From: Escherichia phage vB_EcoS_I14
Sequence record: PP892525.1
Reading direction: 5' to 3' (one strand)
Length of the DNA: 64,000 nucleotides
The notes under the pieces are model-generated. The model was not told the DNA's origin. It worked only from the letters and a program-made list of their open reading frames with translations, and did not search any database. The translations under genes were made by a program, and so were the position numbers. Shown here in pieces: positions 34,402-43,651 of the stretch; position 1 is the stretch's first letter; each line of letters starts with the position of its first letter.

Positions 34402-34477
34402 ATATTCATAAATTAGAGAGTAATTTCTATCTAATTTATAAATAGTGGGGTGTGGAAATCACTTATGTAGTAACACT

Positions 34478-34549
34478 GCCGTCCTAGTATAATTGGTATT
34501 ATCAAGCCGTAACTGGTGGAAGATGTAGGTTCGAATCCTACGGTCGGTA
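34478..34549 (+). tRNA. tRNA-like element (degenerate; anticodon arm does not fold)
   Basis: canonical T arm GTAGG-TTCGAAT-CCTAC and acceptor GCCGTCC/GGTCGGT with mismatches. Confidence 0.35.
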
Positions 34550-35052
34550 AGAACTGGATAACTGATGCTTTTAACGTAAAAGCTTCCGAGGTTAGTTGCG
34601 CACTGCCTAAACCACGCGGTAGTTGGTTCCAGACTAACCAACCAGTCTGCTGAATAGTTTTATTACGATTTAACTATGTCCAGGCTAAAGAAGAACTTTA
34701 GAAGGTATTTCTAGGATAGTGAAGTTCTTTCTCCATATCGGAGTAGTTTTTCAAGCTATCCACAAAGTGGGAAATGCTGACATGAGAGATGTCACTAATG
34801 GTGCACAATAGCACAGGTAATTCGCGATAACTCCTGTTGAGTAGCAGCAAAAGGCGGGAAGTCATGACCCCAAGCCTAACCGAGTCCTCAATATACCGCA
34901 GGACATAACCACTAAGTCACCCTGACTTAAACTGGAAAATAATAGACGTTACTGTATTTTGTCTTGAAATACTTAATGAGTGAGACTTATGATTCTCCCG
35001 GTATCGTCTGTATTTTTAAGAGTTTTTACGAGAGTTCTTAAAAATACTTAAA

Positions 35053-36840: not shown

Positions 36841-36918
36841 GGTTCTCAAGCTCATATGGTATGAGCACCCGGCTCATAACCGGAAGGTACGTAGGTTCGA
36901 ATCCTCGGGGAGCCACCA
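36841..36918 (+). tRNA. tRNA with anticodon CAT (Met, fMet or Ile-lysidine)
   Basis: anticodon loop CTCATAA; acceptor GGTTCTC/GGGAGCC; T stem imperfect. Confidence 0.6.
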
Positions 36919-38087: not shown

Positions 38088-38175
38088 GGGCGTTTATTCC
38101 GTAAGTGGTAGCGGAGGGGATTGTAAATCCCTGGTCATTGCGACTCGAGTGGTTCGACTCCATTAACGCCCACCA
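38088..38175 (+). tRNA. tRNA-Tyr (anticodon GTA), long variable arm
   Basis: acceptor GGGCGTT/AACGCCC, anticodon loop TTGTAAA, T loop TTCGACT, CCA. Confidence 0.8.
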
Positions 38176-39822: not shown

Positions 39823-39924
39823 AATTCTGTGTAGAGTTAAGTAAACCGGTAGCCAACCAGCTATCATTGCTGACATCGAATTCAGCCACAGATACCATTT
39901 TCATTAATAACTGAGGAAACAAGC

Positions 39925-40222: not shown

Positions 40223-40570
40223 ATGGTTAATGCTAAAGAAGAATTGTTACTTGCCCTAAAGAATACTAATTCTGAAGTTAAGTGTATTAAGATAGAATTC
40301 GGTTATTATGGGGACAAAGAAGTTTGGGTATTACCCATAGGTTATACAGAAAAAGATATTGAAGATTTTCTAAATAATCTAGACTTTAAATATGATTCTG
40401 GTTTCGGTGGACAATTGCTTTATGGTAACGTATGGTTTACTGATGGAACTTGGTTAGAACGTGGTGAATACGACGGTTCTGAATGGTGGGAATATAAGGC
40501 TACACCAGCAATCCCAGAAGAATGCCGAACAATTAATGGTGAAGTAGATCGTACTTTACTATTAAATTAA
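40223..40570 (+). CDS. hypothetical protein (115 aa)
   Basis: ORF. Confidence 0.5.
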   Translation: MVNAKEELLLALKNTNSEVKCIKIEFGYYGDKEVWVLPIGYTEKDIEDFLNNLDFKYDSGFGGQLLYGNVWFTDGTWLERGEYDGSEWWEYKATPAIPEECRTINGEVDRTLLLN

Positions 40571-40692
40571 CAAAATTTCAGTGCAGAACACGGAGCTAGC
40601 AATTCGGAAGTGCTGACTCATGATAAGCTGCCTATGTACTTGCGAAGCGGTCGTGTCCAAGACTCGGACTCTTGCACTGAAAACAATCAAAC

Positions 40693-40813
40693 ATTCTAGC
40701 GTGGTTGATGGGGAAACCAGCTTGGCTAGGGCAGAAGCTCGTTCGATTCGAGTGAAAGAATGGTTCTCGTAAGTCCGCACAAGTGATAGCAGGTTCGAGT
40801 CCTGTCTAGAATG
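40693..40813 (+). ncRNA. candidate tRNA-like RNA of about 121 nt with an enlarged central region
   Basis: 7 bp acceptor-like helix ATTCTAG/CTAGAAT, D-arm-like TGGTT...AACCA, canonical T arm GCAGG-TTCGAGT-CCTGT, but about 68 nt where an anticodon arm should be. Confidence 0.35.
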
Positions 40814-40962
40814 ACACTATAAAGTTTACTTATTATGTAGGTTCCGATAGATCGGCGGGTCTATTCTGGCATTTAAGAGAAGTCTCGCAAACTTTTTTGT
40901 CAGCCGTGGGGTTGGTAGCCTCCAGGTGGCCTACACAATAAGTAAATTTATTAAAAATTCAT

Positions 40963-40991
40963 TTGCTATTCTGCTTTATTATCTGTATAAT
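40963..40991 (+). promoter_or_regulatory. T5-type promoter: -35 TTGCTA, -10 TATAAT
   Basis: 17 bp spacer. Confidence 0.7.
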
Positions 40992-41023
40992 ATATTTTAT
41001 AAAGTGAAGAGAAGGAAAGCAAA

Positions 41024-41182
41024 ATGAAACACAAGATAGCTCAAGTCTTTATGGCATTATGGTGTATGCCAATAGCTATAACAGCATTTAATCTAGATAC
41101 TTTTACTATAGAAGAAAAATATATCGGATTAGTTAGCGGCTTTAGTATGCTGGGCTTATCTTTGCTGTGGTTAAAGAAATAA
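41024..41182 (+). CDS. hypothetical small membrane protein (52 aa), below the ORF-track cutoff
   Basis: ATG at 41024 after RBS AAGGAAAG; hydrophobic. Confidence 0.4.
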   Translation: MKHKIAQVFMALWCMPIAITAFNLDTFTIEEKYIGLVSGFSMLGLSLLWLKK

Positions 41183-42120: not shown

Positions 42121-42310
42121 CCTCATCATAGTTCACTAAGGTATTAGCTCGACCTAGGACTGGCTGCCAAAAAGCACGATCCCTACGATTCGGGAGAAGT
42201 TCTAGATTAGTCCACTAGATTCAGCGGCAACTGAATAGTGTATTGGGTTTGCGAGATGACGCGGTTCCTTCCGCTCGAAGCGAAGGTGCTGTAGTTACGC
42301 CGAGCTAATA
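42121..42310 (+). ncRNA. candidate structured small RNA of about 190 nt
   Basis: terminal clamp ATTAGCTCG (42143-42151) pairing with CGAGCTAAT (42301-42309); internal hairpins GCGGTTCCTTCCGC and CTTCGC/GCGAAG; no ORF. Confidence 0.4.
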
Positions 42311-42332
42311 GCCTTAGTAAACTAAAGAATTT

Positions 42333-42513: not shown

Positions 42514-43098
42514 ATGCAGTTTGTACCAATAAAAGATGCACCAGGGTATTTAGTAAATGAAACAGGGGATGTGTTATCTACATTTACTAATAAAATTTTA
42601 TCAAGATATATAGTTGATGGATACCCTGCTGTAAAATTACAGATAAATGGTAAGCAAACTTCGGTACTTATACACCGAATTATTTCTCATGTATTTGGGG
42701 ACTTATATAATCTATTTGACCCTGAATTAGAAGTAGATCACAAGGATAGAGATAGGCTGAATCTATCTAAAGATAATCTTCAAGTTTTATCAAAAATAGA
42801 ACATCAGAAGAAAACTAATAAAGATAATGGATGGTCTGATAGTAGAGTACCTTGCCCCTTATGTGGAAATCTAATGCTTCAGAGATCAGTAACATGTACA
42901 AATTGTAAGCCAAAACCTACAGGAAAGTTAATAAAACCAGAGTTGTCCTTAGAAGACATAACTGAAAAGGTTTTATTAATGGGGTGGGTTAAGGCAGCTA
43001 AAGATCTAGAAGTATCAGAGTCCACTTTACGTAGACGATATACTAAACTAACCGGATTAAGCCCAAAAGTATTAACAGAACAACGGAAAAGCAAATAG
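42514..43098 (+). CDS. HNH homing endonuclease-like protein
   Basis: HNH motif in VDHKDRDRLNLSKDNLQVLSKIEHQ plus C-terminal Cys cluster; embedded in tRNA array. Confidence 0.7.
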   Translation: MQFVPIKDAPGYLVNETGDVLSTFTNKILSRYIVDGYPAVKLQINGKQTSVLIHRIISHVFGDLYNLFDPELEVDHKDRDRLNLSKDNLQVLSKIEHQKKTNKDNGWSDSRVPCPLCGNLMLQRSVTCTNCKPKPTGKLIKPELSLEDITEKVLLMGWVKAAKDLEVSESTLRRRYTKLTGLSPKVLTEQRKSK

Positions 43099-43178
43099 AC
43101 TGGTGACTAAACCCGATTGGAAATCGGTTGAGTGGTAGCAATACCGCCTTATGGGTTCAACTCCCATCTTTTCCGCCA
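43085..43178 (+). tRNA. tRNA-Ser (anticodon GGA), long variable arm
   Basis: perfect acceptor GGAAAAG/CTTTTCC, anticodon loop TTGGAAA, T arm ATGGG-TTCAACT-CCCAT, CCA. Confidence 0.8.
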
Positions 43179-43285: not shown

Positions 43286-43651
43286 AATCTTGAAGTATGC
43301 CGGAATCGGTAGACGGGGCTGCCTAAAAGGTTTATAGGGAACATCCACTCCCTGCAACATACCTCATAAAGCGGCTGAGATAAATGGTCTATCTCGTGAA
43401 GGTTCAAGTCCTTCTGCTTCTTGATACATCTATGGCTCAAAGTGTAACGGTGCTATTTGATGCTCTTGGTAAGACTTCCCCGACATGCGTTCGGGAGTAA
43501 GCTGCTAAGGCTAGGGTAGAAGAGTTTCTGAGAGCCGCCACAATTGAAAATTCGTACTCGTCTTGAGCTGCGTGCAATAGGAGATAACTTGATTAGTATT
43601 CTAGAACATGCTAATTGAGGAAGGTTTCGCTAACCCTGCGAGTTTTCAATT

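What the first reader, a model, noticed from the sequence alone, without database searches (positions are those of the whole stretch)
40578..40960. Three stem-enclosed RNAs in a 390 bp ORF-free gap, one a 121 nt tRNA-like molecule
The gap contains (i) a domain closed by TCAGTGCAG (40578-40586) pairing with CTGCACTGA (about 40672-40680); (ii) a 121 nt element at 40693-40813 with a perfect 7 bp acceptor-like helix, a D-arm-like hairpin and a canonical T arm but about 68 nt where the anticodon arm should be; (iii) a third domain closed by TGTAGG (about 40846) pairing with CCTACA (about 40930). There is no promoter or RBS inside the gap; the next promoter is at 40963. An oversized tRNA-like RNA co-transcribed with tRNAs could be an RNase P substrate with a new function.
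Basis: seen in the sequence. Interest (0 to 1): 0.75.

Follow-up and report, generated by a model that had tools for sequence, protein, structure and literature searches.

The report
Phage T5 stable RNAs, tRNA mimic
The gap holds stable RNA genes that were annotated long ago in phages T5 and BF23 (a tRNA-shaped "RNA2" and "RNAIV") plus one unannotated stem-closed element; the new point is that RNA2 belongs to a widespread phage-only family in which a near-invariant 55-nt module replaces the anticodon loop.

Summary
The window is a T5-like phage, and the gap lies inside its tRNA cluster. All three stem-closed domains are real. Domains (ii) and (iii) are orthologues (about 98% identity) of features annotated in the T5 and BF23 GenBank records. 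RNA2 ("tRNA-like RNA with unknown functions") maps to 40692-40816. RNAIV ("stable RNA with unknown functions") maps to 40835-40937. Domain (i), 40575-40683, is not annotated in either record. Only its 10-bp terminal helix and its extreme conservation are supported.

RNA2 is a full tRNA body: acceptor stem, D arm, 5-bp anticodon stem, variable loop and T arm. Its 7-nt anticodon loop is replaced by a 55-nt module holding a second T-arm hairpin and invariant AUGG and CGUAA motifs.

I found 39 distinct homologues in Demerecviridae, T4-like Acinetobacter phages and jumbo-phage and metagenomic contigs. None turned up in about 100,000 bacterial and archaeal genomes. Covariation supports all six helices, and the module is the most conserved part. 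RNA2 has no anticodon, no conserved CCA and no conserved acceptor identity, and Rfam has no family for it.

It is therefore a tRNA-scaffolded effector or mimic RNA, not a decoder. Its function is still unknown. The existence of these RNAs is already known; the family-level picture is new.

The parts
40223..40570 (+). Upstream ORF (115 aa), homologue of T5p065 / BF23 ORF trn 2.10. Context only; its stop codon opens the gap.
40575..40683 (+). Domain (i): an unannotated, stem-closed element of about 109 nt. The terminal helix is 40576-40585 with 40673-40682 (10 bp perfect). The internal fold is not established.
   Evidence: helix rare in shuffles, MFE z = -0.44; 219 phage records, all at least 94% identical, no distant homologues; no compensatory changes; not annotated in T5 or BF23.
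40692..40816 (+). RNA2 (extent as annotated in T5/BF23): a tRNA-scaffold RNA.
   Evidence: orthology. CM R1 scores 75 bits at 40692-40814; covariation.
40693..40699 (+). RNA2 acceptor stem, 5' strand ATTCTAG. It pairs with 40806-40812. The discriminator is G40813 and the tail is ACA (40814-40816), not CCA.
40702..40719 (+). RNA2 D arm: TGGTT-GATGGGGA-AACCA.
   Evidence: 4 of 5 pairs show double-sided changes.
40720..40724 (+). RNA2 anticodon-stem equivalent (Pa), 5' strand GCTTG. It pairs with CAAGT at 40780-40784.
   Evidence: 6 of 6 columns covary; aligns to the tRNA anticodon stem in homologues.
40725..40779 (+). The conserved 55-nt module that replaces the 7-nt anticodon loop. Its parts are J1 GCTA; Pb GGGC (40729-40732) with GTCC (40773-40776); J2 AGAA; the inner T-arm hairpin; a single-stranded stretch GAAAGAAUGGUUCUCGUAA; and J4 GCA.
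   Evidence: invariant GGG, GTTCGATTC, ATGG(T), CGTAA, TCCGCA; 55-nt insert versus the tRNA model.
40737..40753 (+). Inner T-arm-like hairpin (Pc): GCTCG-TTCGATT-CGAGT.
   Evidence: the stem covaries, while the loop and the closing G-C pair are invariant.
40760..40772 (+). Invariant AUGG (40760-40763) and CGUAA (40768-40772), separated by a variable spacer.
   Evidence: a possible extra 3-4 bp helix with J2 or with the 5' part of the same strand; unresolved.
40789..40805 (+). RNA2 canonical T arm: GCAGG-TTCGAGT-CCTGT.
40822..40834 (+). Outer 13-bp A/U-rich stem flanking RNAIV, 5' strand AAGTTTACTTATT. It pairs with 40937-40949. It is a candidate double-strand processing stem (inference).
   Evidence: invariant in 19 sequences
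40835..40937 (+). RNAIV (extent as annotated in T5/BF23): a four-way junction. The inner stem is 40837-40845 with 40925-40934. The hairpins are 40846-40865, 40866-40903 (invariant 7-nt loop CUCGCAA at 40884-40890) and 40908-40922.
   Evidence: annotation; 98.9% of cells paired; 11 pairs with compensatory change versus 2.6 in shuffles.
40963..40991 (+). Sigma-70 promoter TTGCTA-17-TATAAT, equal to T5 promoter P13a. It starts the next unit (small ORF, tRNA-Pro, tRNA-fMet).

Best explanation
The gap is the 3' end of a T5-type tRNA/ORF transcription unit and encodes stable RNAs. These are an unannotated stem-closed element (domain i), RNA2 and RNAIV.

Shown: RNA2 is a complete tRNA body in which the anticodon loop is replaced by a 55-nt, nearly invariant module. 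The module contains a second T-arm hairpin plus AUGG and CGUAA motifs. This design is conserved, with compensatory changes in all six helices, across very different phages and is absent from cellular genomes.

Inferred: the tRNA body serves as a processing and stability scaffold. RNase P would cut at the 5' end, exonucleases would trim the 3' end, and the RNA would fold into an L-shape, as in engineered 'tRNA scaffold' RNAs. Because RNA2 has no anticodon, no conserved CCA and no conserved acceptor identity, it cannot decode. The module is the working part. It probably folds into a compact second 'elbow', with the GG docking into the inner T-loop. That would present a tRNA-like decoy or binding surface to a conserved tRNA-recognising factor, such as a host tRNA-targeting nuclease, a tRNA-processing or -modifying enzyme, or the ribosome.

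RNAIV is a separate four-way-junction RNA. It is probably released from a roughly 24-bp stem by a double-strand-specific cut followed by trimming. Domain (i) is probably a third processed RNA or a processing element. The confidence given is for identity and architecture. The decoy/binding function on its own deserves about 0.3.
For: Identity: the window is 98-99% identical to T5-like phages and 97.9% identical to T5 across the gap. The T5 and BF23 records annotate rna2 and rnaIV at the corresponding positions.

Architecture: a manual structural alignment of 24 sequences gives 94.8% paired cells versus 64% in shuffles. 26 of 33 pairs show double-sided changes, and the covariation score is 0.695 versus 0.05-0.09 for slid controls. 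A CM-based alignment of 39 distinct sequences gives 90.8% versus 59.5%, and 0.596 versus at most 0.097.

tRNA body: the Rfam tRNA model aligns homologues L053 and L050 over positions 1-71 at 44.8 and 40.9 bits, with 55 nt in place of the 7-nt loop.

Module conservation: the invariant columns are concentrated in the module.

Distribution: T5-likes, Sugarlandvirus, Serratia and Yersinia phages, Acinetobacter phages 133 and Acj9, and contigs of 204-364 kb. All 19 pattern hits in about 100,000 species genomes are chance matches.

Non-decoding: ARAGORN calls none of them. CCA follows the discriminator in only 3 of 39, although neighbouring true tRNAs encode it.

Context: the RNA always sits in tRNA clusters, and no shared neighbouring protein family was found in 33 diverse loci. 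There is no terminator or strong promoter in the gap.

RNAIV structure.
Against: No transcript data were available here, so RNA ends, stability and processing enzymes are inferred or taken from GenBank annotation. The manual and CM alignments were fitted to the proposed structure, which inflates the paired percentages, although the slid and shuffled controls are far lower. The GG/T-loop docking cannot be tested because both partners are invariant. No binding partner was identified, and the module has no sequence similarity to any E. coli RNA. The Acinetobacter-phage copies and the L025 copy have degenerate acceptor stems, so the full tRNA scaffold is not universally required. The internal fold of domain (i) has no support.
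Confidence: 0.8

Rival explanations
1. RNA2 is an intron-containing tRNA gene. The 55-nt insert would be removed to yield a functional tRNA.
For: The Rfam tRNA model aligns homologues with one insertion exactly at the anticodon loop. Bacterial and phage tRNA introns are known to sit in anticodon loops (background knowledge).
Against: The residues flanking the insert (J1 + J4) total 6-8 nt, have no U33 and give no consistent anticodon. The insert is the most conserved part, the opposite of what is expected of an intron. At 55 nt it is far too small for a group I intron, and no Rfam intron family hits it. No splicing mechanism of this kind is known in bacteria.
Confidence: 0.03
2. RNA2 is a charged tRNA mimic that acts on the ribosome, like tmRNA. 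CCA would be added post-transcriptionally and the module would substitute for the anticodon arm or mRNA.
For: It has a full acceptor/T-arm minihelix and a D-loop GG. T4 tRNAs lacking encoded CCA are repaired by the host CCA-adding enzyme (background knowledge). The Kamaji copy has G3.U70 and A73.
Against: The acceptor sequence and discriminator are not conserved, so there is no common synthetase identity. CCA is encoded in only 3 of 39 copies, although sibling tRNAs encode it. ARAGORN calls no tmRNA. The AUG...UAA spacing varies between 12 and 13 nt, so there is no conserved mini-ORF. Some members lack a paired acceptor.
Confidence: 0.1
3. RNA2 is a decaying pseudo-tRNA with no function. Domain (i) and RNAIV would be just spacer hairpins.
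For: No function is known after decades (GenBank notes). The window copy fails the Rfam and ARAGORN tRNA tests.
Against: There are near-invariant 55-nt module positions and compensatory changes in six helices across phages of different families. RNAIV also shows compensatory changes. Domain (i) is 94-100% identical in 219 genomes, even where the flanks are 79-91% identical.
Confidence: 0.03
4. Domain (i) is not a functional RNA. It would be a DNA-level palindromic or mobile (MITE-like) element, or merely a processing/insulator hairpin between the ORF or a tRNA and RNA2.
For: It has 10-bp perfect terminal inverted repeats. It is patchily present (219 of about 480 RNA2-bearing records) at very high identity. 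The MFE is not unusual. There is no covariation, and the enrichment of variable sites in loops disappears with a structure predicted independently of the variation (p = 0.12).
Against: There is one copy per genome and no paralogue in the window. No clean target-site duplication was seen, and in PRF-SP12 it arrives together with an extra tRNA-like gene, which points to recombination rather than transposition. It always lies on the transcribed strand directly after a tRNA 3' end or an ORF stop.
Confidence: 0.25
5. The gap encodes small proteins, for example the 72-aa minus-strand ORF that some submitters annotate as a hypothetical protein.
For: ORFs of 29, 50 and 72 aa exist. Several GenBank records annotate hypothetical proteins here.
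Against: The 72-aa ORF has an internal stop in T5 and is frameshifted in KookSpook, PRF-SP12 and TrudiGerster. The substitution pattern is that of RNA helices.
Confidence: 0.02

Closest known systems
Phage T5 / BF23 RNA2 and RNAIV (misc_RNA features in GenBank AY692264, AY543070, NC_042564/AJ604530)
   Same: Same genes: about 98% identity, same order (ORF trn 2.10 - RNA2 - RNAIV - promoter P13a - tRNA-Pro), same extents.
   Different: Nothing of substance. BF23 and many Epseptimaviruses carry a tRNA-Gly between RNA2 and RNAIV, which this window lacks. Domain (i) is not annotated in those records.
Engineered 'tRNA scaffold' RNAs (the Ponchon and Dardel approach; cited from PMC3753655 and background knowledge)
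   Same: Same architecture. The acceptor, D and T arms and the anticodon stem are kept, and the anticodon loop is replaced by a functional RNA. The chimera is processed and stabilised like a tRNA in E. coli.
   Different: This is a natural, phage-encoded version with a conserved cargo whose function is unknown.
tmRNA (SsrA)
   Same: tRNA-like ends (acceptor plus T arm) enclose a large functional insert. The RNA is stable and processed by RNase P.
   Different: RNA2 keeps a D stem and an anticodon stem. It has no tag ORF, no pseudoknots and no conserved G3.U70, and ARAGORN does not detect it as tmRNA.
Phage T4 species 1 and 2 RNAs (rnaC, rnaD)
   Same: Small stable RNAs of unknown role encoded in a phage tRNA cluster. 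The 3' 94 nt of rnaC has an acceptor-like stem and a canonical T arm and ends in ...ACA.
   Different: rnaC lacks the module and scores only 21 bits with the RNA2 model, within the range of ordinary tRNAs (12-28 bits). rnaD does not match.
Bacterial Y RNA YrlA (Rfam RF02553) and other tRNA mimics (viral TLS, mascRNA)
   Same: Non-coding RNAs that imitate part of the tRNA fold (T-loop/D-loop elbow).
   Different: There is no Rfam hit in the gap at E <= 10. There is no Ro-binding stem. In RNA2 the tRNA mimicry is the whole body rather than an internal module.

Membership tests
T5/BF23 RNA2 | Orthologous sequence at the syntenic position of the annotated misc_RNA | tested here: met
   97.9% identity to T5 across the gap. 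The feature maps to 40692-40816.
T5/BF23 RNA2 | Accumulates as a stable RNA of about 125 nt in infected cells | not testable with these tools
   Rests only on the GenBank annotation.
T5/BF23 RNAIV | Orthologous sequence directly upstream of promoter P13a | tested here: met
   Maps to 40835-40937. The promoter is at 40963-40991.
Canonical tRNA (Rfam RF00005) | Cloverleaf helices: acceptor, D, anticodon stem, T | tested here: met
   All are present and covary.
Canonical tRNA (Rfam RF00005) | 7-nt anticodon loop with U33 and an anticodon | tested here: not met
   The loop is replaced by 55 nt. The flanking J1/J4 residues cannot form such a loop.
Canonical tRNA (Rfam RF00005) | Score at or above the gathering threshold; detected by ARAGORN | tested here: not met
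   The window copy has no Rfam hit even at E <= 10 and no ARAGORN call. Homologues L053 and L050 reach 44.8 and 40.9 bits only by skipping the insert.
Canonical tRNA (Rfam RF00005) | 3' CCA end (encoded, as in the sibling T5 tRNAs) | tested here: not met
   The tail is ACA. CCA is present in 3 of 39 family members. Post-transcriptional addition is not testable.
tmRNA | tRNA-Ala-like acceptor (G3.U70), tag reading frame, detection by ARAGORN | tested here: not met
   No tmRNA call. G3.U70 occurs only in Kamaji. The AUG-UAA spacing is not in a conserved frame.
Intron-containing tRNA | Removing the insert restores a functional anticodon loop; the insert is less conserved than the exons | tested here: not met
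   No group I intron hit.
T4 rnaC (species 1 RNA) | Homology detectable by sequence/structure model | tested here: not met
   21.3 bits over the 3' 94 nt only, with no module. No blastn link.
YrlA / Y RNA | Match to RF02553 | tested here: not met
   No hit in 40400-41100 at E <= 10.
MITE-like element (domain i) | Terminal inverted repeats | tested here: met
   10 bp perfect.
MITE-like element (domain i) | Multiple dispersed copies and a target-site duplication | tested here: not met
   Single copy in the window. No clean duplication at the junctions.

The most novel reading that the evidence does not exclude
RNA2 would be the founding member of an uncatalogued, phage-specific class of tRNA-scaffolded effector RNAs. 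In this reading the invariant 55-nt T-loop/GG module binds and neutralises or redirects a universally conserved tRNA-recognising factor. Candidates are a tRNA-targeting defence nuclease or a tRNA-processing enzyme. That would make it an RNA-based counter-defence or host-takeover device. Domain (i) would be a further, so far unannotated T5 stable RNA.
Probability: 0.2. Interest if true: 0.85.

Novelty: already known. Interest (0 to 1): 0.45.

Why it matters
T5 and T4 have carried "stable RNAs of unknown function" in their tRNA clusters for about 40 years.

This analysis shows that RNA2 is not a T5 oddity. It is a strongly constrained design: a tRNA body with an invariant module in place of the anticodon loop. 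That design is shared by siphoviruses, T4-like Acinetobacter phages and jumbo-phage contigs, and it is absent from cellular genomes.

The old question therefore becomes a testable one. The module gives a defined mutational target. The tRNA body predicts the processing pathway. The current interest in phage tRNAs as counter-measures to tRNA-cleaving defences (PMC10644984, PMC11555353) suggests concrete assays.

It would also be a natural precedent for the tRNA-scaffold trick used in RNA engineering.

Tried and rejected
**Rfam**
- Rfam at gathering and at E <= 10 over the gap gave only two spurious hits (pan, SNORD65).

**Links to T4 and host RNAs**
- The T4 link was rejected. blastn from the Acinetobacter copy finds no T4 hit, and the CM gives rnaC a tRNA-level score. 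The local similarity I saw by eye (TCGATTCGAG...CGTAAG) in the 5' part of rnaC is unsupported.
- Resemblances by eye to the 23S L11-binding domain, tmRNA PK1 and RNase P CR-I were not pursued. The module has no blastn similarity to any E. coli genome.

**Searches beyond phages**
- The 19 bacterial pattern hits are all chance matches.
- No conserved neighbouring protein was found across 33 diverse loci.

**Literature**
- Searches for T5 RNA2/RNAIV, for the motif as a text string and for tRNA-like anti-defence RNAs found nothing relevant.

**Domain (i)**
- No distant homologue and no paralogue.
- RNAalifold placed the variable sites in loops, but this did not hold against an independently predicted structure.

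**Extra helix in the module**
- An extra helix in the module (J2 or J3a with the spacer before CGUAA) gave only a weak signal: own-sequence mean 3.3 bp versus cross-sequence mean 2.4 bp. It is left unresolved.

**Alternative readings**
- The intron, mini-ORF and coding readings were rejected.

Full report
**What the window is**

The window is a T5-like phage. A 1-kb query around the gap matches 436 phage records, the best at 98.8% (Salmonella phage vB_Si_CECAV_FGS009). T5 itself is 97.9% identical across the gap. ARAGORN and Rfam each find 24 tRNA genes on the + strand between about 34.4 and 45.7 kb. The gap 40571-40965 lies between a 115-aa ORF (40223-40570) and a small ORF (41024-41182) followed by tRNA-Pro.

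**Observation check**

All three stem-closed domains are present.

- Domain (i) is closed by a perfect 10-bp helix, 40576-40585 with 40673-40682. A stem this long occurs in 0.7% of dinucleotide shuffles.
- Domain (ii) is exactly as described. It has a 7-bp acceptor (40693-40699 with 40806-40812), a D arm and a canonical T arm, with 65 nt in between.
- Domain (iii) is closed by TGTAGG at 40836-40841 (not about 40846) pairing with CCTACA at 40930-40935. The helix continues outward, after a 2x2 internal loop, as a 13-bp A/U-rich stem, 40822-40834 with 40937-40949.
- The promoter at 40963-40991 (TTGCTA-17-TATAAT) is real and there is no terminator-like site in the gap.
- The only sizeable ORF, 72 aa on the minus strand, has an internal stop in T5 and is frameshifted in three other relatives.

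**What is already known**

The GenBank records of T5 (AY692264, AY543070) and BF23 (NC_042564) annotate two features here. They are rna2/RNA2, "tRNA-like RNA with unknown functions", and rnaIV/RNAIV, "stable RNA with unknown functions". Promoter P13a follows them.

In window coordinates RNA2 is 40692-40816 and RNAIV is 40835-40937. The BF23 record lists eight such RNAs in the tRNA region: RNAX, RNA3, RNA2, RNAIV, RNA2H, RNA1, RNAI and RNAIII. Elements (ii) and (iii) are therefore known genes of unknown function.

Domain (i) is not annotated in either record. The searchable literature holds nothing on these RNAs. The analogous T4 RNAs, RNAC and RNAD, are also still described as having unknown function.

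**RNA2 anatomy**

The order of elements is:

| Element | Sequence |
|---|---|
| Acceptor 5' strand | ATTCTAG |
| Linker | CG |
| D arm | TGGTT-GATGGGGA-AACCA |
| Pa 5' strand | GCTTG |
| J1 | GCTA |
| Pb 5' strand | GGGC |
| J2 | AGAA |
| Pc hairpin | GCTCG-TTCGATT-CGAGT |
| Single strand | GAAAGAATGGTTCTCGTAA |
| Pb 3' strand | GTCC |
| J4 | GCA |
| Pa 3' strand | CAAGT |
| Variable loop | GATA |
| T arm | GCAGG-TTCGAGT-CCTGT |
| Acceptor 3' strand | CTAGAAT |
| Discriminator and tail | G, then ACA |

Pa occupies the place of the anticodon stem. Everything between its strands (40725-40779, 55 nt) replaces the 7-nt anticodon loop. That insert contains a second hairpin with a canonical T-loop sequence.

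**The RNA2 family**

A degenerate pattern of the module recovered relatives from IMG/VR and from metagenomes. blastn added Klebsiella (Sugarlandvirus), Serratia, Yersinia and Acinetobacter phages.

A covariance model built on my structural alignment separates family members (39.9-77 bits, 52 matches, 39 distinct) from ordinary tRNAs (12-28 bits). Members occur in Demerecviridae, in the T4-like Acinetobacter phages 133 and Acj9, and in contigs of 204, 311 and 364 kb.

A scan of one genome for each of about 100,000 bacterial and archaeal species gave 19 pattern matches. None is a real copy. The family always sits among tRNA genes, and no neighbouring protein family recurs across 33 diverse loci.

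**Structure support for RNA2**

| Measure | Hand alignment (24 seqs) | CM alignment (39 distinct seqs) |
|---|---|---|
| Cells forming standard pairs | 94.8% | 90.8% |
| Same, shuffled | 64% | 59.5% |
| Pairs with double-sided changes | 26 of 33 | 28 of 33 |
| Covariation score | 0.695 | 0.596 |
| Same, partners slid 1-3 columns | 0.05-0.09 | at most 0.097 |

Both alignments are fitted to the structure, so the absolute percentages lean towards it. The gap to both controls is still large, and all six helices contribute.

The invariant positions are GGG of Pb, G-TTCGATT-C of the inner hairpin, ATGG(T), CGTAA, TCC-GCA, and the GGTTC/TCC of the outer T arm. The tRNA body varies freely through compensation, while the module barely changes.

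Independently, the Rfam tRNA model aligns two metagenomic members over all 71 model positions, with 55 nt in place of the loop, at 44.8 and 40.9 bits. The window copy deviates more from the canonical body (for example C8) and gets no Rfam or ARAGORN call.

**What RNA2 is not**

- *Not an intron-bearing tRNA.* The residues flanking the insert total 6-8 nt, lack U33 and give no consistent anticodon. The insert is also the conserved part.
- *Not tmRNA-like.* ARAGORN makes no tmRNA call, G3.U70 is not conserved, and the AUG-to-UAA spacing changes frame between members.
- *Not a detectable homologue of T4 rnaC or rnaD*.
- *Not a sequence mimic of an E. coli RNA*.
- *Probably not selected for aminoacylation.* The acceptor sequence and discriminator vary. 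Only 3 of 39 members encode CCA. The T5-like copies carry ACA or ACT although their sibling tRNAs encode CCA.

**Most likely mechanism**

Shown: RNA2 is a tRNA body with a conserved module in place of the anticodon loop, found only in phages and embedded in tRNA operons.

Inferred from the established biology of tRNA maturation and of engineered tRNA scaffolds: the body directs 5' cleavage by RNase P, 3' trimming and folding into a nuclease-resistant L-shape. The module is the functional cargo.

The module pairs a T-loop hairpin with an invariant single-stranded AUGG. By analogy with the G18-G19/T-loop contact of tRNA, this probably forms a second elbow-like knob at the position of the anticodon.

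Such an RNA cannot decode, but it can occupy or sequester proteins or ribosomal sites that recognise the tRNA shape. The module is conserved across phages of very different hosts and no partner gene is linked to it. The target is therefore more likely a conserved host factor, or a defence nuclease class, than a phage protein.

I put about 0.3 on a decoy or binding role of this kind, about 0.1 on a charged ribosome-acting mimic, and the rest on functions not yet imagined.

**RNAIV**

RNAalifold on 19 sequences gives a four-way junction. It consists of an inner closing stem and three hairpins, the middle one with an invariant CUCGCAA loop, all nested in the invariant 13-bp outer stem. Of the cells, 98.9% pair. 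11 pairs show compensatory changes versus 2.6 in shuffles and 1-4 in slid controls.

The annotated mature ends fall at the internal loop between the outer and inner stems. This fits a double-strand-specific cut (RNase III type) followed by trimming, which is an inference. RNAIV was found only in T5-like phages and has no Rfam match.

**Domain (i)**

It occurs in 219 phage records, all at least 94% identical and 164 at least 99% identical. It is 97.5% identical in PRF-SP12, where RNA2 is 91% and RNAIV 79% identical.

In KookSpook, SP01, PRF-SP12 and TrudiGerster it starts right after a tRNA or tRNA-like 3' end rather than after an ORF. So it behaves as an independent unit within tRNA transcripts.

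Its internal fold is unproven. The MFE z-score is -0.44 and there are no compensatory changes. Variable sites are not significantly enriched in unpaired positions of an independently predicted structure (6 of 13 in paired positions, p = 0.12).

It may be another processed RNA, a processing or insulator hairpin, or a DNA-level palindromic element. It is single-copy and has no clear target duplication.

**Verdict**

This analysis adds a covariation-backed model of RNA2, the recognition of its conserved module, and its wide, phage-restricted distribution outside Rfam.

Noticed in passing
window 43289-43433: This is the orthologue of BF23 RNA1, a second annotated 'tRNA-like RNA with unknown functions' (about 145 nt). 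It folds with an acceptor-like closing stem, a D-like hairpin, a T arm GAAGG-TTCAAGT-CCTTC and a long, different insert. T5-like phages may therefore use the tRNA-scaffold design more than once.
   Followed up: partly
window 34430-35052, 39825-39897, 42142-42313, 43434-43540, 43545-43650: These are orthologues of the other stable RNAs annotated in BF23: RNAX, RNA3, RNA2H, RNAI and RNAIII. RNA3 (73 nt) ends in ...ACCA but lacks a D stem. RNAIII folds well below shuffled sequences (z = -2.9).
   Followed up: partly
L005 1487-1610 (Klebsiella phage vB_Kpn_3, MZ079855): Its RNA2 is a chimera. The acceptor and outer T-stem ends are Sugarlandvirus-type, but the central 98 nt are 100% identical to the T5-type core, which breaks one T-stem pair. 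This is either recombination within the RNA gene or an assembly artefact.
   Followed up: no
L040 712-800 (Salmonella phage PRF-SP12) and the equivalent in L056 (TrudiGerster): There is an unannotated tRNA-like gene, not called by ARAGORN, between tRNA-Lys and domain (i). It reads GGGGTCT...AGACTCC-A-CCA, with a D arm and an atypical long interior.
   Followed up: no
L003 1464-1572 (Acinetobacter phage 133), L036 596-709 (Acj9), L025: These family members keep the module, Pa and the T arm but have a degenerate or missing acceptor and D stem. In phage 133 the 3' side runs straight into tRNA-Cys. The module may therefore work without a complete tRNA body.
   Followed up: partly
L043 1409-1547, minus strand (T4 rnaC): The 3' 94 nt of T4 species 1 RNA form an internal acceptor-like stem (ACGGAAC with GTTTCGT) plus a canonical T arm and end in ...ACA, the same tail as T5 RNA2. 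The 5' 45 nt show short matches to the RNA2 module (TCGATTCGAG, CGTAAG) that did not reach significance.
   Followed up: partly
window 36841-36915 and 34478-34549; 38088-38175 and 43085-43178: The two tRNA finders disagree on four genes. Rfam reports tRNAs at 36841-36915 and 34478-34549 that ARAGORN omits. ARAGORN reports tRNA-Tyr and tRNA-Ser(gga) that are absent from the Rfam gathering list.
   Followed up: no
window 40937-40949 versus 40944-41018: The 3' strand of the invariant outer stem of RNAIV overlaps the upstream A/T-rich part of the annotated P13a promoter region. Its invariance could therefore reflect promoter (UP-element) constraint as well as RNA pairing.
   Followed up: no
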